Shown: positions 28,251 to 55,420 of the stretch, piece after piece | Position numbering within the stretch: the first letter of the stretch is position 1 | Layout: each line of letters begins with the position of its first letter | Source of the DNA: an uncultured Acidimicrobiales bacterium | GTDB taxonomy: Bacteria; Actinomycetota; Acidimicrobiia; Acidimicrobiales; AC-14 | Length of the DNA stretch: 64,000 bases | Assembly: GCA_964479465.1 (NCBI GenBank) | Contig: CAYZMG010000003.1 | Coordinates: forward strand, 56,812-120,811 | Direction: 5' to 3' | Made by a program: the position numbers and the translations under genes | Notes under the pieces: generated by a model | What the model was told of the DNA's origin: nothing | What the model saw: only the letters and a program-made list of their open reading frames with translations | Databases searched by the model: none

Positions 28251-28655
28251 CTACGGGCGGGATTCGACCTTGCCGCCCAGGGCCTCCCAGACGGCCTCCG
28301 TGTGGCTGAAGGTCCCATCGCGGAGCCGGTCGACGACGTCGGGCGAGGCGTTGAGCTCCTGGGCGCAGGCCACGATCGCCTCCCGGTCGGCCGGCCAGAT
28401 CGACGGTCGCAGGTAGGCCGCGATGCGGCCGCGGGCTTCGGCTTCGTCATGGTCGAGCTGCACATCGTTCGACTGTTCGGGGTGAAGGTCGCCACTCAGG
28501 AGGGCGTCCGTCGTTGGCTCGCCGTCGGCCGCACCCTCCTGATGGCGCCCCTCGTCGGCTCGCGCTTCGCTCGGCGAGCCCTGGGTCAGCGGTCGGGTGT
28601 CATGCTTCAGGCCGTCGTCGATCCTGGGGGAGTGCTTGTCGCTTCCGCGTTCCAT
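28251..28655 (-). CDS. DUF2795-family protein
   Basis: ORF 28251..28655(-). N-terminus MERGSDKHSPRIDDGLKHDT. The C-terminal part is WPADREAIVACAQELNASPDVVDRLRDGTFSHTEAVWEALG. Confidence 0.75.
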   Translation of the reverse strand: MERGSDKHSPRIDDGLKHDTRPLTQGSPSEARADEGRHQEGAADGEPTTDALLSGDLHPEQSNDVQLDHDEAEARGRIAAYLRPSIWPADREAIVACAQELNASPDVVDRLRDGTFSHTEAVWEALGGKVESRP

Positions 28656-28672: not shown

Positions 28673-29713
28673 ATGGCCTGGAATGACAAGCTTGTAACTG
28701 TCGCAGCGGCTTGGGATGCTGGACGGGTGGCACTCACGGCGCTCCTTCCCTCCTCTCCGTCCCTCGAGACGGCCGCCCGGCGTCTGGCCGCGCTGCTCAC
28801 GGGGGGCGAAGGCGGCCTGGCCGACCCTGGCAACGGCCATCTCCAGTTCGATGCCGAGATCCGGCTCCGACCCCTCGTTCGGGCCGATGCCGCGCCGGCG
28901 GAGGTATGGGCGGTCGACGGCGGGCAGGCCGTGGTGGCCGACGCCCGGTGCCTGCAGCTCGTCGTGGCCCGCGCCGCCCGGGTCTGCTTCCGCCTCGGGA
29001 CCTGCGAGACCGAGGACGAGGGCGACCTGCGCGCCTTCCTGCTGGGCGGCAGGGAAAACCGGGTCGTGGCCGGCGCCCTGGGCCTGGGCATCGCCGAGGA
29101 CGCCACCGTCGACCTCGGCCTGCTGCGGGACCACGAGGAGTGGGTGGCCGTCGACCGCTGCGTCGCCGAGGCCGCGCCCGGGGCCATGGTCCTCGTCGAT
29201 GGCGACCTGGAGCCCGACTGGCGGGTGCCGCCGTCGTGGCTGACCGATCTGCTGGGCCGCGCCGCGTCGCGGGGTGTCGTTGTGGCGGCCGTCACCAAGC
29301 GATCGTCGTTGTCGCGGGGCGGGGCGCCCTTGCTGGGGGCGCTGGAGATCGAGGCCACCCGCGAGCTCGGCCCGCGGGCGATGTGGTGGGCGCCGGTGGC
29401 GCGGAGCCGGGCCGGCGCCCGGGTGGTGGCCGCCCGCCTCGACGCCGACGCGCCGTTCGCCTTCCGGGTCGACCTGTCACCCGGCGCCGACCCCGAGACC
29501 GCCCTCGCCGCACTGGCCGCCCTGTGCGACGACGCCGGCTTCCCGGGCTACCCCTACCCGCTCACCGTCGCCGACCGCCTGGCCGCCTGCCCCGGCTGGC
29601 TCCGCCAGGACACCTGGTACGAGCTGGAGGAGCTGCTCGACCAGGCCGGCGTCCCCGCCGAAGTCCGCGAGCGCGCCTTCGCCGACCGCCACGACCTCAT
29701 GGAGCGGTTTTGA
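28673..29713 (+). CDS. nurA: NurA-family 5'-3' nuclease
   Basis: ORF 28673..29713(+). Carries VWAVDGGQAVV, VLVDGDL and the C-terminal GFPGYPYPLTVADRLA typical of NurA. It sits directly upstream of herA. The start is uncertain, being only 17 nt from the divergent start. Confidence 0.75.
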   Translation: MAWNDKLVTVAAAWDAGRVALTALLPSSPSLETAARRLAALLTGGEGGLADPGNGHLQFDAEIRLRPLVRADAAPAEVWAVDGGQAVVADARCLQLVVARAARVCFRLGTCETEDEGDLRAFLLGGRENRVVAGALGLGIAEDATVDLGLLRDHEEWVAVDRCVAEAAPGAMVLVDGDLEPDWRVPPSWLTDLLGRAASRGVVVAAVTKRSSLSRGGAPLLGALEIEATRELGPRAMWWAPVARSRAGARVVAARLDADAPFAFRVDLSPGADPETALAALAALCDDAGFPGYPYPLTVADRLAACPGWLRQDTWYELEELLDQAGVPAEVRERAFADRHDLMERF

Positions 29714-30057
29714 TTTCGCGCTCGCAAGCAGAGCTTGCTCGGCGAGGCAGTTGCGCTCCACCCGACCGGCAGAGCCGGTCGGGCTCCGCCGTTCCTTTCT
29801 TGGCCGCCAGCCGAGAGGGGCGGCCTGCGGCCGCTCCTGCGGCCGGCGGCAATGGGGGTCTGTGATGTCCACTGGGCGGTTGTTGATTTCGCGCTCGCAA
29901 GCAGAGCTTGCTCGGCGAGGCAGTTGCGCTCCACCCGACCGGCAGAGCCGGTCGGGCTCCGCCGTTCCTTTCTTGGCCGCCAGCCGAGAGGGGCGGCCTG
30001 CGGCCGCTCCTGCGGCCGGCGGCAATGGGGGCCTCTGATGTCCACCGGGCGGCTGTT
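29708..30057 (+). repeat. tandem direct repeat, 2 x 173 bp, spanning the nurA stop / herA start junction
   Basis: 29711-29883 and 29884-30056 align base-for-base with only 4 mismatches, all in the last ~30 nt. Each unit holds four GC-rich hairpins. In unit 1 these are at 29724-29738, 29761-29783, 29802-29825 and 29828-29845. Confidence 0.95.
29865..30038 (+). other. 57-codon upstream ORF created by the duplication; its stop overlaps the herA ATG (TGATG)
   Basis: ATG 29865 has the same GGGGG spacing as the herA start. It reads MSTGRLLISRSQAELARRG…GGNGGL and stops at TGA 30036-30038. Translation is not demonstrated. Confidence 0.35.
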
Positions 30058-31597
30058 CGGGAAGAACGTGCTCGAAGGGGTGTTCCGGGCCGCGCCCGAC
30101 GAGGATCTCTTCCTGGGCGAGCTGCTGGTGGCGGTCGACGAGGCCACGGGCCGGCGCTACCTGTTCCGCATCGTCGATGTGACCTACGGCACCGAGCACC
30201 GGGAGCCGGGCTGGGCCGAGCGGGTGGCGGGCACGCTACTGGTCGACGACGCCCGGGGCGAAGCCGGCCTGCACCGGCTCTACGACCAGTCCCGCCGGAC
30301 CTACCGGGTGGCGACGTGCCGCTGCCTCGGGTACCTGACACCCGACGGCGCCGACTTCCGCCGGCCCAAGAGCTTGCCCACCCAGTTCTCCCAGGTGGTC
30401 AAGCCCGAGGCCGCCGATTTCGACTTCCTGCGCACCCGCATGGGCGACCTGCCCGTGGGCACGTTGCGCAGCGGCGAGGAGACGGTCGATTTCGAGGTCG
30501 GCATCGCCGGCCGCAGCCTGGCCAGCCACGTCGGCATCTTCGCCACCACCGGCATGGGCAAGTCGAACCTGATGATGGTTCTGGCCGGCGACGTCCTGCG
30601 CTCCGCCGGCCGCTACGGCCTCCTGCTGATCGACCCCCACGGCGAGTACCGCACCCAGCTCGCCCGCCACCCGTGGGCGGGGGAGCGGCTGCGCACTTAC
30701 GCCGCCCGGCCGCTGCCCAACACGTCGTCGCTGAAGGTCGGCCTGGCCGAGCTCACCGTCGACGACCTGCGCACGGCATATGACTGGTCCCGCCCGCAGG
30801 AGGAGGCGCTCTACGAGCTGGAGAAGAAGTTCGGGGGCGACGGCCTGTCCTGGCTGGTGGCGTTCGCCCAGGTGGAGGATCTCCCGGGTCTGCGCGACGT
30901 TGAGCTGAACGGGCGGGTGGCGATGAACACCCTGCAGGTCCTGCACCGGCGGGCCCGGCGCATCGTGGAGCTGCCCTGCATCGCTGCCGACGCCCATGTC
31001 TCGGTCGGCGCCGCCGTGCTGCGGGATCTGCGCGAGGGCCGCGTCGTCCTCATCGACGTGAGCGGCCTCGGCTCCACCGAGGAGCTGCTGGTCGCCGCCT
31101 TCCTCACCCGCCGGGTGCTGGAGGAGTGGTCCACGGCCTACCTGGAGGATCCCGAGGCCCACGAGCGGCTGCCCGTGGTGGCCGTCGTACTCGAGGAGGC
31201 CCAGCGGGTGCTGGCCGCCAGCAAGGACCGTGACTCCAACGTCTTCCCCCGGGTGGCAAGGGAGGGGCGCAAGTTCAAGGTCGGCCTCTGCGCCGTCACC
31301 CAGCAGCCCAAGCTCCTCGACGGCGAGCTGCTCAGCCAGTTCAACACCTTCTTCATCCTCGGTCTGGCCGACGAGAAGGACCGCACCATCCTGCGCTCGT
31401 CGTCGAAGCAGGACATCGCCGCCCTCGGCCCCGAGATCCAGACCCTCATGCCCGGTGAGTGCCTGCTGGCCAACCTCGACGCCCCCTTCGCCGTGCCGGC
31501 CAAGATCCACCTCTGGGCCGACGTGGTGCGCAACTGCCCGCCGCCGCCGGCGCCCCGCCCCGTGGTCGCCGCCAACGTCTCGGCGATGGTCGACTGA
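30038..31597 (+). CDS. herA: HerA-family (FtsK/HerA clade) hexameric ATPase/helicase
   Basis: In ORF 29735..31597(+), start at ATG 30038 after the repeat. Walker A is GIFATTGMGKSNLM. Walker B region is VVAVVLEEAQRV. The conserved segment GRKFKVGLCAVTQQP is present. Confidence 0.85.
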   Translation: MSTGRLFGKNVLEGVFRAAPDEDLFLGELLVAVDEATGRRYLFRIVDVTYGTEHREPGWAERVAGTLLVDDARGEAGLHRLYDQSRRTYRVATCRCLGYLTPDGADFRRPKSLPTQFSQVVKPEAADFDFLRTRMGDLPVGTLRSGEETVDFEVGIAGRSLASHVGIFATTGMGKSNLMMVLAGDVLRSAGRYGLLLIDPHGEYRTQLARHPWAGERLRTYAARPLPNTSSLKVGLAELTVDDLRTAYDWSRPQEEALYELEKKFGGDGLSWLVAFAQVEDLPGLRDVELNGRVAMNTLQVLHRRARRIVELPCIAADAHVSVGAAVLRDLREGRVVLIDVSGLGSTEELLVAAFLTRRVLEEWSTAYLEDPEAHERLPVVAVVLEEAQRVLAASKDRDSNVFPRVAREGRKFKVGLCAVTQQPKLLDGELLSQFNTFFILGLADEKDRTILRSSSKQDIAALGPEIQTLMPGECLLANLDAPFAVPAKIHLWADVVRNCPPPPAPRPVVAANVSAMVD

Positions 31598-32721
31598 TGC
31601 GCGTCGCAGCGCTGGGCGACGCCCACCTCGGCCGCTCGTACTACTCGTACACGACGGCCGACGGCTTCAACCAGCGCGAGCGCGACTTCGAGGACTCCTT
31701 CACCCGGGCGGTGGAGCTGGCCCTCGCCCAGTCGCCCGACCTGCTGGTGTGGCTGGGCGACATCTTCGACCACCCCCGCCCCACCTACCGGTCCTACCGC
31801 ATTGCCCAGAGGGCGCTGGTGCGCATCCGCGAGCACGGCACGCCGCTCGTGCTGATCACAGGCAACCACGACACGCCCCGGCTCCCGGGCACCGGCAGCC
31901 CCTACTCGGCGCTGGCCGACCTGTTTCCCGAGTTCCACTTCGCCCATCGCATGGCGTATGAGCGGTTCGCCTTTCCCGGGCTCGTCGTCCACGCCGTGCC
32001 CCAGATGCTCACCGTCGACGCCACCCTCGACGCCCTGGCCGAGGCCCGCCTGAGCCGGTCCTCCGACGCCACCAACCTCCTGCTGACCCACCCCCGGGTG
32101 CCGCAGGTCGAGCCCCACCACTCCGACATCAACGAGATCGCGGTCGACGCCGGCCTGCTCAAGTCCTCGGCCGACCTGGCCCTCCTCGGGCACTACCACT
32201 TCCACACCAAGGTCGACAGCGGCATCTGGTACGCCGGCTCCACCGACACGTTCTCCTACGCGGATGATCCCGAAGTGGCCAAGGGCATCGTCCTGCTTGA
32301 CACCGACTCCGGCCAGATCGCCCACATCCCCCTGAGCGGCCAGCGGCCGCTCATCACCCCGCCCGCGGTGCACGCCCTGGGGCTGTCGCCGGCCGAGGTG
32401 CAGGAGCGGGTCCTGGAGCGGGTGGCGGCGGTGCCGGCCGGCGCCGTGGTCCGCCTGTTCCTCGAGGGCGTCGACCCCGAGGCCTACCGCATGCTCGACC
32501 TGGAGGCGATCCGGGCGGCGTCGGCCCACGCCCTCCACCTCAAGCTCCAGCCCGACTTTGCCGGCTCGAAGACCAACGTGGAGCTGCCCGACCTGGCCTC
32601 GCTGCCGGTGCAGTGGGCCAACTACGTGCAGGGCCAGGACCTCGTCGGCTTCGATCGAGACCGCATACGGAACAAGGGCGACGAGTACCTGGCCCGCGCC
32701 GTCGAGGAGGCCATCGACTAG
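31597..32721 (+). CDS. mre11: Mre11/SbcD-family nuclease (calcineurin-like phosphoesterase)
   Basis: In ORF 31459..32721(+). ATG 31597 overlaps the herA stop (TGATG). Phosphoesterase motifs: GDAHLG, GDIFD, GNHD, LLTHP and GHYH. Confidence 0.85.
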   Translation: MRVAALGDAHLGRSYYSYTTADGFNQRERDFEDSFTRAVELALAQSPDLLVWLGDIFDHPRPTYRSYRIAQRALVRIREHGTPLVLITGNHDTPRLPGTGSPYSALADLFPEFHFAHRMAYERFAFPGLVVHAVPQMLTVDATLDALAEARLSRSSDATNLLLTHPRVPQVEPHHSDINEIAVDAGLLKSSADLALLGHYHFHTKVDSGIWYAGSTDTFSYADDPEVAKGIVLLDTDSGQIAHIPLSGQRPLITPPAVHALGLSPAEVQERVLERVAAVPAGAVVRLFLEGVDPEAYRMLDLEAIRAASAHALHLKLQPDFAGSKTNVELPDLASLPVQWANYVQGQDLVGFDRDRIRNKGDEYLARAVEEAID

Positions 32722-32723
32722 CC

Positions 32724-35000
32724 GTGCGCGTCACCCGACTGCACCTGCGGAACTACCGCGTGTTCGAGGACGACCTCGACCTGGAGATCCCGCCGGGGCT
32801 CGTCGGCATCTACGGGCTCAACGGCGCCGGCAAGTCGGCGCTCATCGAGAGCATCCGGTTCACCCTCTACGGCAAGTCGCGGACCCAGATGGACGAGGTG
32901 CGCACGTCGGGCGTCAACGCCGAGTGCCTCACCGAGGTGGAGTTCGAGCACGAGGGCCACCTGTACCTCGTGCGGCGCACGATCAGCGGGTCCAACTCCC
33001 AGGTCAAGGCGGAGGCCCACGCCGACGGCCAGCAGGTGGCCGAGGGCGTGCGCGACACGAGCCGCTACGTCCACTCCATCCTGGGCATGAGCGACGCCGC
33101 CTTCCGGGCCTCCGTCTTCGCCGAGCAGAAGCAGATCGCCGCGTTCAGCGAGCAGACGCCGGCCGACCGCCGCAAGCTGGTCCTCCAGCTGCTGGGCATC
33201 ACGCCGCTCGACGCGGCGCGCGACCTGGCCCGCAAGGACGCCCGCTTCGCCCAGGACCAGTTCCAGCGCCTGCGCAGCGTGCTGCCCGACCTCGACCTGC
33301 TGCGCCTGGCCGTCGCCGCCGCCGATGTGGCCGCCGCCGAGGCCGAGGAGCGCAAGGCGGAACATGAGGCCGTCGCTGTCGTCGCCCGGGCCGAGTTGGA
33401 GAAGGCCGTCGCCCGCCACCTCGACCTCGACGTCCTGCGCCAGGAGCACGAGCGGCTGGTGGCCGAGGGTAAGGCGGTGCGCGAGCAGTACGAGAAGGCC
33501 GCGGCCTGGGTGGCCAAGCTCACCGAGGAGAAGGCCGACCTTGAACGGGTGGCCGAGCGGCTGAAGATCCTGACTCCGGATGCCGAGGGCTGGAAGGCGG
33601 CGGAGGACCGGCTGCGGCTGGTGGAGGCGGTGGTGGCCGCGCAGGCCGCACTGGCGAAGGTGCCGGTACCGGTCACGCCGCTGGCGCCGGACGAGTCGGG
33701 GTACGAGGTGGCCCGCGCCGAGGCGGAGGAGGCCAAGGTGGCCCTGGCCGCCGTCAACGCCACCATCCAGGCGGCGAAGGTCGAGCGCGATCGGGCCACC
33801 GAGGCGGTGACCCGCTCGGCCGCGCTCACGGGCGAGGGCGACTGCCCGCTGTGCGGCCAGGCCCTGGGTGACGCCTTCGAGGCGGTGCAGGCCCACCGGA
33901 AGGCCGACCTGGCCGAGATCGAGGCCCGCCTCAACGAGCTGGAGCTCGATCACCGTCAGGCCGTCGTCTCAGCCACGACCAAGGGCGAGCACGCCGCCGT
34001 CCTGGCCAAGGCGCTCCGGCGGGCCCAGGAGGAGTGGGCCACGCACGAGAAGCGAGTCGCACGCCGCCAGGAGGCGGAGGCCGCCCTCGCCGCCGCCGAG
34101 GCCGCCCTCGGACGGCCCCTTACCGACGGCGAGCGGAGCGCGCTGGCGGCCGAGGTCGAGCGCCGGCGCCAGGCCAAGGACGAGTGCCAGCGAATCCATG
34201 GTCGGTTGGAGCGACGGGAGGCCGTCGCCGGCGAGCTCGACGTGGAGCAGGCGGCCATGGCCGAGAGCCTGGGGCGGCTGGCGGCGTTGCGCGACAAGGT
34301 CGCCGGCCTCAACTTCCACCCGGATCAGCTCACCGTGGCCCTGGCCGAGCGGGCACGCCTCCAGGCCGCGGCCGAAGCCGCCAACCTGCGGGCCCAGGGC
34401 TCGACGGTCGTGGCCACCCAGGCTCGGGAGCGAGCCCAGGCCGAGGCCCGCCGCCTGGGCGAGGCCACCGAGCAGCACGCGCAGCTGGCCGAGTTGGGGG
34501 AGGAGGCTCGCCATCTGGCCCGCCTTGGCGACCTGCTCAACGCCTTCCGCAACACCTTGGTGGCCTCGGTCGGTCCCCGGCTCTCGGCCCAGGCGGCCGA
34601 GCTGTTCGCCGAGCTGACCGACCGGGAGTACGACCGCCTGGAGGTCGACCCCGACACCTACGAGATCAAGATCCTCGACGCCGGCCGCACCTTCGGCATG
34701 GGCCGGTTCTCCGGGTCGGAGACCGATCTGGCCAACCTGGCCCTGCGGGTCGCGGTGAGCGAGCACGTGCGCTTCCAGTCCGGCGGCGCCGTCGGCCTCC
34801 TCGTGCTCGACGAGGTGTTCGGCCCCCTCGACGACGACCGCAAGGCCCGGATGCTTGTCGCCCTGGAACGGCTGCGGGCCCGGTTCCGCCAGGTGCTGGT
34901 CGTCACCCACGACACAGCCATCAAGGAACAGCTCCCGAACGCCATCGAGGTCGTCAAGCTGCCCGGCCGGCGGGCCACGGCGCGCACCGTCAACGCCTGA
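32724..35000 (+). CDS. rad50: Rad50/SbcC-family SMC-like ATPase with CxxC zinc hook
   Basis: In ORF 32613..35000(+). GTG 32724 lies 2 nt after the mre11 stop. Walker A is GLNGAGKS. A long coiled coil carries the hook GDCPLCGQ at its centre. Signature SGSETDLANLA; Walker B LLVLDEVFGPLD. Confidence 0.85.
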   Translation: MRVTRLHLRNYRVFEDDLDLEIPPGLVGIYGLNGAGKSALIESIRFTLYGKSRTQMDEVRTSGVNAECLTEVEFEHEGHLYLVRRTISGSNSQVKAEAHADGQQVAEGVRDTSRYVHSILGMSDAAFRASVFAEQKQIAAFSEQTPADRRKLVLQLLGITPLDAARDLARKDARFAQDQFQRLRSVLPDLDLLRLAVAAADVAAAEAEERKAEHEAVAVVARAELEKAVARHLDLDVLRQEHERLVAEGKAVREQYEKAAAWVAKLTEEKADLERVAERLKILTPDAEGWKAAEDRLRLVEAVVAAQAALAKVPVPVTPLAPDESGYEVARAEAEEAKVALAAVNATIQAAKVERDRATEAVTRSAALTGEGDCPLCGQALGDAFEAVQAHRKADLAEIEARLNELELDHRQAVVSATTKGEHAAVLAKALRRAQEEWATHEKRVARRQEAEAALAAAEAALGRPLTDGERSALAAEVERRRQAKDECQRIHGRLERREAVAGELDVEQAAMAESLGRLAALRDKVAGLNFHPDQLTVALAERARLQAAAEAANLRAQGSTVVATQARERAQAEARRLGEATEQHAQLAELGEEARHLARLGDLLNAFRNTLVASVGPRLSAQAAELFAELTDREYDRLEVDPDTYEIKILDAGRTFGMGRFSGSETDLANLALRVAVSEHVRFQSGGAVGLLVLDEVFGPLDDDRKARMLVALERLRARFRQVLVVTHDTAIKEQLPNAIEVVKLPGRRATARTVNA

Positions 35001-35040
35001 CGATTTCCCGTCGGGCCCTGCGAGCAGGTACAACCGGTCC

Positions 35041-35796
35041 GTGGTGTGGATTCTCGATCTCGACGGAGTGGTGTGGCTGGCCGAGGACGTCATCCCCGGC
35101 GTCCCGGAGGCGGTCGCCCGCCTGCGCGAAGCCGGCAACACCATCCTCTTCCTGACCAACAACTCCAGCCGCACGGTGGCTGACATGGTCGAGAAGTTCG
35201 AACGCATGGGGATCCCCGTCGAGGCCGACGAGATCGTCACCTCGGCCCAGGCCGCTGCGTCCATGCTCGAACCCGGCACCGTTGCCCTGGTCTGCGCCGG
35301 CGACGGGGTGCGCGAGGCCCTCGGCGCTCGGGGCGTGAAGATGGTCGACGAAGGCGAGGCCGACGCCGTCGTGGTGGGGTTCCACAAGGAGTTCGATTAC
35401 AAGCGCCTCAACGCCGCCTACCAGGCCATCCGGGGCGGCGCCCGCCTGATCGGCACCAACGACGACACGACCTACCCGACGCCCGACGGGCCGATCCCCG
35501 GAGGCGGTGCGCTGTTGGCGGCGGTGGCGGCGGCCGCCGGCGTGGAGCCCGAGGTGGCAGGCAAGCCCTACCAGCCCATGGCCGACGCGGTGCGGGCCCG
35601 CATCGGGGATGCGGCCGACGACGGGATGGTCGTTGGCGACCGTCCCGACACCGACGGGCTGATCGCGCGGCGACTGGGGCTGCCGTTCGCCCTCGTCTTC
35701 ACCGGCGTGACGTCCGAGGACGACCTGCCCGTCGAGCCCGAGCCGGCGACGACGGCGCCGGATCTGGCCACCCTGGTCAATCAGAAACTGGGATAA
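35041..35796 (+). CDS. HAD-IIA family hydrolase (NagD-like)
   Basis: In ORF 34855..35796(+), GTG 35041 (VVWILDLDGVVW…LFLTNNSSR…VGDRPDTD). Confidence 0.8.
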   Translation: MVWILDLDGVVWLAEDVIPGVPEAVARLREAGNTILFLTNNSSRTVADMVEKFERMGIPVEADEIVTSAQAAASMLEPGTVALVCAGDGVREALGARGVKMVDEGEADAVVVGFHKEFDYKRLNAAYQAIRGGARLIGTNDDTTYPTPDGPIPGGGALLAAVAAAAGVEPEVAGKPYQPMADAVRARIGDAADDGMVVGDRPDTDGLIARRLGLPFALVFTGVTSEDDLPVEPEPATTAPDLATLVNQKLG

Positions 35797-49683: not shown

Positions 49684-49695
49684 CCAGTGCACAGG

Positions 49696-49709
49696 CGAAC
49701 ATATGTTCG
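49696..49709. promoter_or_regulatory. LexA (SOS) box upstream of imuA'
   Basis: CGAACATATGTTCG matches the actinobacterial TCGAAC-N4-GTTCGA consensus. It lies 15-50 nt upstream of the candidate imuA' starts. Confidence 0.7.
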
Positions 49710-49760
49710 TCTAGACTGGCCGGCGTGGCAGTCGCCGTCGCCCAACTCGTGCCAGTCGCG

Positions 49761-55365: not shown

Positions 55366-55405
55366 AGCAAAGTCATATCAGCCCATTTCATCCCTGGCAA
55401 GGGGG

Positions 55406-55420
55406 CGAACAAATGTTCGA
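55406..55420. promoter_or_regulatory. LexA (SOS) box upstream of dnaE2
   Basis: CGAACAAATGTTCGA is immediately followed by the -10-like TATACT. It lies 13 nt upstream of the dnaE2 ATG at 55433. Confidence 0.7.

What the first reader, a model, noticed from the sequence alone, without database searches (positions are those of the whole stretch)
28673..35000. Complete archaeal-style nurA-herA-mre11-rad50 cluster in an actinobacterial context
Seen: four co-directional genes each carry family motifs. NurA has GYPYPLTVADRLA. HerA has a Walker A and the EEAQ box. Mre11/SbcD has five phosphoesterase motifs. Rad50/SbcC has a central CPLC hook. herA-mre11 overlap (TGATG) and mre11-rad50 are 2 nt apart. 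Established knowledge: this four-gene linkage is the signature of the archaeal DSB end-resection machinery. In bacteria NurA-HerA pairs are known (e.g. Deinococcus/Thermus) but are usually not fused into one operon with an Mre11-Rad50 pair. HerA-type ATPases also occur in anti-phage systems. Inference: this is a dedicated end-resection or possibly conflict-related module. Flanking genes are housekeeping, composition is native, and no LexA box was seen upstream.
Basis: partly seen in the sequence, partly recalled or inferred. Interest (0 to 1): 0.6.

Follow-up and report, generated by a model that had tools for sequence, protein, structure and literature searches.

The report
Actinobacterial NurA-HerA-Mre11-Rad50 repair operon
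An uncultured soil-type actinobacterium (order Acidimicrobiales) carries an intact four-gene set for trimming broken DNA ends that most resembles the archaeal one; it is inherited vertically, sits behind a promoter of the DNA-damage type, and is a sound but fairly ordinary member of a known system.

Summary
The four genes are real and intact: nurA (better start GTG 28727, not ATG 28673), herA 30038-31597, mre11 31597-32721 and rad50 32724-35000. All catalytic motifs are present. Among solved structures, each protein's best match is its archaeal counterpart.

The gene order is not rare. It holds in 28 of 28 sufficiently long loci from a phylum-wide sample. It also holds in 55 of 58 named Acidimicrobiia loci. 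The HerA tree follows GTDB families, so inheritance is vertical and nothing points to a defence island.

[quoted passage not shown] However, this scan has already reported the same operon many times on other DNA.

New points found here:
- A conserved promoter of the RecA-NDp (PafBC) type lies 6 nt before a leaderless start. The same motif precedes recA in this genome. A 14-bp palindrome specific to this operon lies just upstream.
- NurA motif III has Asp where the wider family has His.
- The genome also holds a second, Deinococcus-type nurA-herA-sbcD-sbcC set on a lower-GC island next to a tRNA gene. None of 80 other families sampled in the order has both types.
- The 324-nt nurA-herA spacer is a tandem duplication of a dispersed repeat.

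Verdict: new member of a known kind, moderate interest.

The parts
28684..28697 (.). 14-bp near-perfect palindrome TGACAAGCTTGTAA, a candidate operator at the -35 position
   Evidence: The 10-bp core ACAAGCTTGT occurs with at most 1 mismatch upstream of nurA in 41 of 110 related loci, all of them Acidimicrobiia. In the own genome, no other copy of the core has the flanking half-sites or the TGTC promoter element beside it.
28699..28720 (+). RecA-NDp (PafBC)-type promoter: TGTCGCAG, 8 nt, GATGCT. It ends 6 nt before the GTG start, so the mRNA is predicted to be leaderless.
   Evidence: The motif is conserved in relatives. The same architecture, TGTCACAC-N8-TAGGGT, lies upstream of recA in the own genome. 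The motif has 20 genomic hits against about 5 expected, several of them before DNA-metabolism genes.
RNase H-like nuclease with motif I D, motif II D and motif III Asp in place of His.
29704..30057 (+). 173-bp tandem duplication (2.1 copies, 97% identical). It contains a hairpin-rich dispersed repeat of about 138 bp plus the herA ribosome site and first codons. It creates a 57-codon upstream ORF (29865-30038) whose stop overlaps the herA ATG.
30038..31597 (+). herA, 519 aa, a FtsK/HerA-superfamily hexameric ATPase
   Evidence: DUF87 at 3e-20. Best solved match is S. solfataricus HerA 4D2I at 2e-19.
31597..32721 (+). mre11/sbcD, 374 aa, with all five phosphoesterase motifs
32724..35000 (+). rad50/sbcC, 758 aa, a short coiled-coil ABC ATPase with a central CPLC zinc hook
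28251..28655 (-). Divergent DUF2795 gene. It is a conserved neighbour only in the closest relatives and is context, not part of the system.

Best explanation
This is a chromosomal, vertically inherited operon for processing DNA double-strand-break ends, of the HerA-NurA plus Mre11-Rad50 kind.

Proposed mechanism, inferred from the archaeal and Deinococcus enzymes:
- The Mre11-Rad50 complex, bridged through its zinc hook, recognises and opens or clips DNA ends.
- The HerA hexamer docks on the NurA dimer and pumps duplex DNA into it.
- NurA degrades the 5' strand, leaving a 3' tail for RecA.

Expression is predicted to start at a RecA-NDp (PafBC)-type promoter that yields a leaderless nurA mRNA. 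On that reading the operon belongs to the LexA-independent DNA-damage regulon of Actinomycetota. herA-mre11-rad50 are translationally coupled.

Shown here: gene identities, intact motifs, conserved order, vertical inheritance, the promoter motif and its presence before recA.

Inferred: the biochemical activities, complex formation, damage induction and the role of PafBC.
For: - Identity of the four proteins.
- Conserved order nurA-herA-mre11-rad50. Of 58 named Acidimicrobiia loci long enough, 51 are tight and 4 have an insert. In an even phylum sample, 28 of 28 loci long enough keep the order, across GC 38-77% and NurA identity 24-38%.
- The HerA tree recovers every GTDB family as one clade: 11 label changes, which is the minimum; none of 200 shuffles is as low.
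- GC is native and the flanks are housekeeping genes. The DUF2795 and HAD-hydrolase neighbours are conserved in relatives.
- Promoter: TGTCGCAG-N8-GATGCT lies 6 nt before the start and is conserved in relatives. It was found in 0 of 107 control windows inside nurA.
- recA of the same genome has a LexA box plus TGTCACAC-N8-TAGGGT. This is the dual control described for mycobacterial recA (PMC8223512).
- The motif also precedes a ComM-like ATPase, a PD-(D/E)XK nuclease, a ComF-like protein and dnaN.
- A tandem pair of WYL-domain genes, like pafBC, is present.
- PafBC acts through RecA-NDp (PMC6789036).
Against: - There are no expression or biochemical data.
- The genome already has AdnAB-like genes, RecC, two Ku genes and a second NurA-HerA-SbcCD set. 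The specific need for this system is therefore unclear.
- In Thermus, loss of nurA/herA was reported to raise UV resistance (title of Fujii 2018, recalled from memory, not read). Bacterial NurA-HerA need not promote repair.
- A 324-nt hairpin-rich insert separates nurA from herA and could attenuate read-through.
- NurA motif III carries Asp instead of the usual His.
Confidence: 0.8

Rival explanations
1. The module is mainly a weapon against foreign DNA. On this reading it is a nuclease-translocase that destroys phage or plasmid DNA ends, as the 2026 NurA review states for bacterial NurA-HerA.
For: - HerA-family ATPases are common in defence systems, and the window's HerA matches PADLOC HerA models at up to 1e-22.
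- The review PMC13748450 states that bacterial NurA-HerA complexes mainly degrade exogenous DNA.
- The weak best sequence match of the NurA profile in the PDB is TdpB, from a DNA-sensing defence pair.
Against: - There are no defence genes within 10 kb.
- The flanks are stable and inheritance follows families.
- NCBIfam scores for DSB-repair HerA (83 and 72 bits) exceed those for anti-phage HerA (43 and 33 bits).
- No Sir2, DUF4297 or other effector partner is present.
- The promoter type is shared with recA.
Confidence: 0.1
2. It processes DNA ends but acts to restrain or redirect recombination, or serves replication-fork or nucleoid maintenance, instead of being the main resection route. AdnAB and RecBCD would do the bulk resection.
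For: - AdnA/AdnB-like genes, RecC and two Ku genes are present in the same genome.
- In Haloferax, Mre11-Rad50 restrains homologous recombination (title of PMC2700283).
- Only about a quarter of the families in the order keep this system, so it is dispensable.
Against: In thermophilic archaea the same four-gene set is reported to carry out resection (PMC8708640; PMC3326311). A damage-type promoter fits a repair role.
Confidence: 0.08
3. The operon is decaying here: the repeat insertion and its duplication uncouple nurA from herA-mre11-rad50.
For: - The 324-nt spacer is longer than in any of the 55 named relatives that have all four genes (HSP-based gaps: median 25, maximum 173).
- Each repeat unit folds at about -87 kcal/mol.
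Against: - All four reading frames and all catalytic motifs are intact.
- One copy of the same element sits in the spacer of the closest relative, L010, whose operon is also intact.
- The duplication carries the herA ribosome site with it.
Confidence: 0.02

Closest known systems
herA-mre11-rad50-nurA operon of thermophilic archaea (Sulfolobales, Thermococcales)
   Same: It has the same four protein families with all catalytic motifs, in one operon. The best solved-structure matches are archaeal: S. solfataricus HerA 4D2I, M. jannaschii Mre11 and Rad50, and S. solfataricus NurA 2YGK. The herA-mre11-rad50 block is in the Sulfolobales order.
   Different: - The host is bacterial and mesophile-like.
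- nurA lies first instead of last (archaeal orders per PMC13748450).
- Rad50 is short (758 aa).
- NurA lacks the euryarchaeal M domain and has Asp for His in motif III.
- All NCBIfam archaeal equivalog scores are far below their cut-offs.
- The promoter is of an actinobacterial damage type.
Deinococcus radiodurans NurA-HerA complex (PDB 7F6D; PMC9960219)
   Same: It is a bacterial NurA-HerA end-resection pair, and the NurA fold matches 7F6D chain G.
   Different: - The window's HerA does not match Deinococcus HerA at E<=0.001.
- A second HerA in the same genome (contig C70) matches it at 5e-91.
- The Deinococcus pair was handled as a two-gene nurA-herA operon, and any link to sbcCD was still an open question (PMC9960219; PMC4663267).
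Bacterial SbcCD (E. coli type)
   Same: It has an Mre11/Rad50-family nuclease and an ABC ATPase with a zinc hook.
   Different: SbcC models score below the archaeal Rad50 models (111 against 153 bits). The protein has 758 aa against about 1040. It is linked to NurA-HerA.
Anti-phage HerA systems (Sir2-HerA, DUF4297-HerA, TdpAB)
   Same: They share a HerA-family ATPase, and TdpB is NurA-like.
   Different: There is no Sir2 or DUF4297 effector. The context is not a defence island. Matches are weaker than to repair HerA.

Membership tests
HerA-NurA/Mre11-Rad50 end-resection system | NurA: RNase H-like fold with conserved acidic residues in motifs I and II and His in motif III | tested here: met
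   The best Foldseek match is NurA 2YGK, with 9X1M_G, 7F6D_G and 3TAI also among the hits at E<=1e-5 (EndoV structures rank between them); TM about 0.45-0.5. 48 of 52 homologues hit PF09376. The motif I and II DG residues are invariant. The motif III His is Asp in this clade (24 of 25) against His in 42 of 52 of the wider family. I read this as a D-E-D-D variant, which is an inference.
HerA-NurA/Mre11-Rad50 end-resection system | HerA: FtsK/HerA-superfamily ATPase with Walker A and B | tested here: met
   DUF87 scores 73.5 bits against a cut-off of 23.2. GMGKSN and VVLEEAQ are present. 4D2I matches at 2e-19. The N-terminal HAS barrel was not examined separately.
HerA-NurA/Mre11-Rad50 end-resection system | Mre11: five phosphoesterase motifs | tested here: met
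   All five motifs are present. Metallophos is over its cut-off. Archaeal Mre11 structures are the best matches.
HerA-NurA/Mre11-Rad50 end-resection system | Rad50: split ABC ATPase with coiled coil and CxxC zinc hook | tested here: met
   Walker A, Q-loop, CPLC at the centre, signature, Walker B and H-loop are present. SMC_N and SbcC_Walker_B are over their cut-offs. The coiled coil was not modelled.
HerA-NurA/Mre11-Rad50 end-resection system | The four genes are co-operonic | tested here: met
   Overlapping or 2-nt junctions. The order is conserved in 55 of 58 and 28 of 28 related loci.
HerA-NurA/Mre11-Rad50 end-resection system | Physical HerA-NurA complex and ATP-driven 5'-3' resection | not testable with these tools
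   Needs biochemistry.
NCBIfam archaeal equivalogs (HerA_Thermprot, Mre11_Sulfo, PRK01156 Rad50) | Score over the curated cut-off | tested here: not met
   Scores are 82.7 against 800, 53.5 against 500 and 153 against 847. The proteins are related to the archaeal orthologue groups but are not members of them.
Deinococcus-type bacterial HerA | Full-length similarity to D. radiodurans HerA (7F6D) | tested here: not met
   There is no match at E<=0.001 for the window's HerA. It is met by the paralogous set on contig C70, at 5e-91.
Anti-phage HerA systems | HerA paired with Sir2, DUF4297 or a similar effector in a defence context | tested here: not met
   PADLOC hits are to HerA models only, with no effector. 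Neighbours are housekeeping genes.
RecA-NDp / PafBC regulon | TGTC-type element 8 nt upstream of a -10 hexamer, shared with recA; PafBC present; damage induction | tested here: inconclusive
   Motif and spacing are present and conserved. recA has the same motif. A WYL gene pair is present. The -10 is GATGCT, not TAnnnT. Induction and PafBC binding are not testable here. The mycobacterial consensus is recalled from memory.

The most novel reading that the evidence does not exclude
Two non-orthologous four-gene end-resection machines exist in Actinomycetota: an archaeal-type nurA-herA-mre11-rad50 set and a Deinococcus-type nurA-herA-sbcD-sbcC set. They normally exclude each other (0 of 80 other families in the order have both). 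Both are wired to the same LexA-independent damage promoter. This genome caught an island-borne copy of the second type beside its native first type. If so, the two are functional alternatives that replace each other by transfer, and the operon-specific palindrome marks a further, unknown regulator.
Probability: 0.3. Interest if true: 0.55.

Novelty: new member of a known kind. Interest (0 to 1): 0.38.

Why it matters
The repair literature I could read treats the four-gene linkage as archaeal. [quoted passage not shown]

The data here show a stable, vertically inherited four-gene operon in several deep lineages of one bacterial phylum. It is predicted to belong to the phylum's PafBC-type damage response and sits next to AdnAB, RecBCD and Ku.

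That gives a mesophilic bacterial setting in which to ask why cells keep an extra resection machine. This genome also allows a natural comparison of the two bacterial versions within one cell.

It does not reveal a new kind of system, and the scan has reported the same operon on other genomes before.

Tried and rejected
- Pfam and NCBIfam on NurA alone gave no significant hit. This was resolved through homologues and the fold.
- The Pfam NurA model is too weak to survey genomes: it missed the own genome. The alignment A2 was used instead.
- The search for related loci with the diverse alignment A2 failed because it had no conserved stretch. It was repeated with A3.
- Naming the other Actinomycetota lineages failed.
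- A cross-domain phylogeny with archaeal sequences could not be built, because no tool gave archaeal sequences that could be used. Similarity to solved structures and NCBIfam scores were used instead.
- The Rfam scan of the promoter and spacer found nothing.
- The consensus sigma-70 and terminator scan found nothing useful.
- A LexA box upstream of nurA was rejected.
- The second DUF87 gene, on C47, is a stand-alone HerA_C/DUF853 ATPase and is unrelated.
- The palindrome-like site on C15 lies inside coding sequence and is taken as chance.
- Iyer et al. 2004 (PMC521647) is not held.
There is therefore no read support for the duplication and no RNA evidence.
Full report
OBSERVATION

The window has 71% GC throughout. 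Four co-directional ORFs lie at the stated place.

Profile searches identify three of them directly:
- HerA hits DUF87 at 3e-20, over the cut-off.
- Mre11/SbcD hits Metallophos at 2e-11. Its best NCBIfam hits are Mre11_Sulfo and sbcd.
- Rad50/SbcC hits SMC_N and SbcC_Walker_B. Its best NCBIfam hits are four archaeal Rad50 models, up to 153 bits, ahead of sbcC at 111 bits.

NurA was the uncertain one, reaching only E=0.012 against Pfam NurA. Three independent lines settle it:
- NCBI names its close homologues NurA.
- 48 of 52 distant homologues, down to 20% identity, hit PF09376.
- An AlphaFold model (pLDDT 82) finds S. solfataricus NurA as its best structural match, then T. kodakarensis NurA. 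D. radiodurans and P. furiosus NurA follow lower down, interleaved with EndoV; Argonaute PIWI folds come after.

The junctions are as described: TGATG for herA/mre11, and 2 nt between mre11 and rad50.

TWO CORRECTIONS

First, nurA most likely starts at GTG 28727 (328 aa), not ATG 28673. Homologues have 320-335 aa and align from residue 19 onward. In relatives an ATG sits exactly at that position. The stretch between the two candidate starts is a conserved non-coding motif.

Second, nurA and herA are not adjacent. They are separated by 324 nt (29714-30037), made of a 173-bp tandem duplication.

I add two points about that duplication:
- The duplicated unit contains a hairpin-rich repeat of about 138 bp, with at least 33 further copies across the genome.
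- One copy already sits in the same spacer in the closest relative, L010, and traces of it in L024 and L049. The insertion is therefore older, and only the duplication is private to this genome.

The repeat has no Rfam match.

WHOSE GENOME, AND HOW COMMON IS THE ORDER

The window lies on contig C3 of a 4.7-Mb metagenome-assembled genome with 204 contigs, 96% complete and 6% contaminated. Its relatives are named Acidimicrobiales or Acidimicrobiia.

Named Acidimicrobiia loci:
- 227 species genomes encode a close NurA relative; the best 80 loci were kept.
- 58 of those are long enough to judge.
- 51 have nurA-herA-mre11-rad50 tightly packed.
- 4 have an insert between herA and mre11.
- 3 have only nurA-herA within 7 kb.
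- The other 22 end at a contig edge and are consistent as far as they reach.

Even sample of 401 Actinomycetota genomes:
- 37 have this NurA type.
- All 28 loci that are long enough show the same order.
- This holds across GC 38-77% and NurA identity of 24-38%.

Own order, sampled one genome per family: 21 of 80 other families have it. The operon is thus patchy across the phylum, and invariant in layout wherever it occurs.

A maximum-likelihood HerA tree recovers each GTDB family as a single clade. It needs 11 label changes, the minimum possible, and none of 200 shuffles is as low. That indicates vertical descent within lineages.

The DUF2795 and HAD-hydrolase neighbours are also conserved among near relatives. 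Nothing within 10 kb looks like defence: the neighbours are a PLD-like enzyme, a multicopper oxidase, HU and a PIG-L deacetylase.

ARCHAEAL-STYLE?

Among all solved structures, the best sequence matches are archaeal:
- HerA matches S. solfataricus HerA (2e-19) and T. kodakarensis HerA.
- Mre11 matches the M. jannaschii and P. furiosus proteins, ahead of SbcD.
- Rad50 matches the M. jannaschii and P. furiosus proteins, ahead of E. coli SbcC.
- D. radiodurans HerA is not matched at all.

Repair-type HerA models outscore anti-phage HerA models. All scores are nevertheless far below the archaeal equivalog cut-offs. These are distant cousins of the archaeal orthologues, not members of those groups.

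I could not build a cross-domain tree, so the direction and age of any transfer stay open.

The gene order differs from both archaeal orders given in PMC13748450: Sulfolobales herA-mre11-rad50-nurA and Thermococcales nurA-rad50-mre11-herA. It keeps the herA-mre11-rad50 block.

REGULATION

No LexA box precedes nurA. The window does hold good LexA boxes elsewhere, before dnaE2 and imuA'.

Instead, the 45 nt before the start are conserved across Acidimicrobiia. They contain three elements:
- A 14-bp palindrome, TGACAAGCTTGTAA (28684-28697).
- TGTCGCAG (28699-28706).
- After 8 nt, GATGCT (28715-28720), and then 6 nt before the GTG start.

That geometry predicts a leaderless mRNA.

recA of the same genome carries a LexA box and, downstream of it, TGTCACAC-N8-TAGGGT. 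This is the dual arrangement described for mycobacterial recA (PMC8223512).

The pattern TGTC[AG]CA[CG]-N8-[TG]AnnnT has 20 genomic hits against about 5 expected. Those placed just before a start codon precede:
- recA
- a ComM-like Mg-chelatase ATPase
- a PD-(D/E)XK nuclease
- a ComF-like protein
- a LAGLIDADG endonuclease
- dnaN

A tandem pair of WYL-domain genes, as for pafBC, is present. PafBC activates DNA-repair genes through the non-palindromic RecA-NDp motif (PMC6789036). The consensus sequence itself I give from memory of Gamulin et al. 2004.

I therefore read the operon as part of the LexA-independent damage regulon. The deviant -10 hexamer and the lack of expression data are caveats. 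The palindrome is found only at this operon and is not explained by PafBC. It may be the site of a further regulator.

A SECOND SET IN THE SAME GENOME

The genome also encodes the following DNA-break repair genes:
- AdnA- and AdnB-like helicase-nucleases, at two contig ends
- RecC
- two Ku genes
- RecA

Contig C70 holds a second complete set on the minus strand:
- a 314-aa NurA, matching Deinococcus NurA at 8e-7
- a 647-aa HerA, matching Deinococcus HerA 7F6D at 5e-91 over its full length
- an SbcD
- a 1078-aa SbcC

Features of this set's surroundings:
- It lies in a stretch of about 12 kb with 64-67% GC.
- It sits next to the PADLOC candidate pair PDC-M03A/B.
- It is bounded by a tRNA-Gly gene.
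- The same-genus genome G428 lacks it, while the adjacent part of C70 is syntenic with G428 at 72-78% identity.
- Its nurA also has a TGTCGTAC-N8-TATCCT element 8 nt before the ATG.

In the order sample, 15 of 80 other families have the Deinococcus-type HerA, 21 have the archaeal type, and none has both. The hypergeometric P is 0.006, but related genomes are not fully independent.

This genome is the only one sampled with both. Mis-binning or a chimeric contig cannot be fully excluded in a bin with 6% contamination.

MECHANISM, RIVALS AND VERDICT

The most likely function is end resection for RecA-dependent repair. Mre11-Rad50 would sense and open the ends, and HerA-NurA would carry out processive 5' strand degradation. 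This is shown for the archaeal and Deinococcus proteins (PMC3326311, PMC9960219, PMC8708640) and is inferred here.

NurA keeps the motif I and II aspartates. In motif III it has Asp where the wider family has His: 24 of 25 in the clade, against His in 42 of 52. This is a plausible D-E-D-D variant and is worth testing.

The rivals are a defence role, a role in restraining recombination, and decay of the operon. They are listed with their evidence, and none is favoured.

It is a new member of a known kind, and this scan has found the same operon repeatedly on other genomes.

Its value lies in four points: it contradicts a recent review statement on bacterial synteny, the promoter assignment, the co-resident second set, and the apparent mutual exclusion of the two types.

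Noticed in passing
G000 contig C70:11167-22551 (loci L131, L139): A lower-GC island of about 12 kb next to tRNA-Gly(CCC). It carries a Deinococcus-type nurA-herA-sbcD-sbcC set and the PADLOC candidate pair PDC-M03A/B (a HipA-like kinase and its partner). Both the nurA and the PDC-M03B gene have a TGTC-N8-TAnnnT element just before a leaderless start. The island is absent from the same-genus genome G428.
   Followed up: partly
window 29714-29876 and at least 33 other places in G000 (loci L003-L008): A dispersed, hairpin-rich repeat of about 138 bp, 70-84% identical between copies. It has no Rfam match. One unit folds at about -87 kcal/mol. It resembles a REP- or MITE-like intergenic element.
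   Followed up: partly
window 49695-49710 and 55405-55420: Good LexA-box-like palindromes (GAAC-N4-GTTC type) lie before the putative imuA'-imuB and dnaE2 genes. They flank a lower-GC stretch (54-56 kb, GC 0.63).
   Followed up: no
G000 C2:60100-60320 (locus L134): recA has both a LexA box (CGAACGTTCGTTCG) and a RecA-NDp-type element (TGTCACAC-N8-TAGGGT) upstream. This is the dual control known from mycobacteria.
   Followed up: yes
G000 C60:2001-2557 (locus L138): A free-standing LAGLIDADG endonuclease gene sits directly behind a RecA-NDp-type element, which suggests a damage-inducible homing endonuclease.
   Followed up: no
loci L050, L059, L080; L051, L085-L087: A sub-clade of Acidimicrobiia has nurA-herA with no mre11-rad50 within 7 kb, or with 2-6 kb inserted between herA and mre11. 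These are natural cases of a split operon.
   Followed up: no
G000 C47:27004-28551 (locus L144): A stand-alone HerA_C/DUF853 (YjgR-like) ATPase of 515 aa, conserved in several genomes of the order. It is unrelated to NurA.
   Followed up: partly
window 34855-35796: The longest reading frame of the HAD-family hydrolase gene just downstream overlaps the rad50 3' end by 146 nt. The true start is probably after 35000. It is a conserved neighbour in relatives and could be co-transcribed.
   Followed up: no
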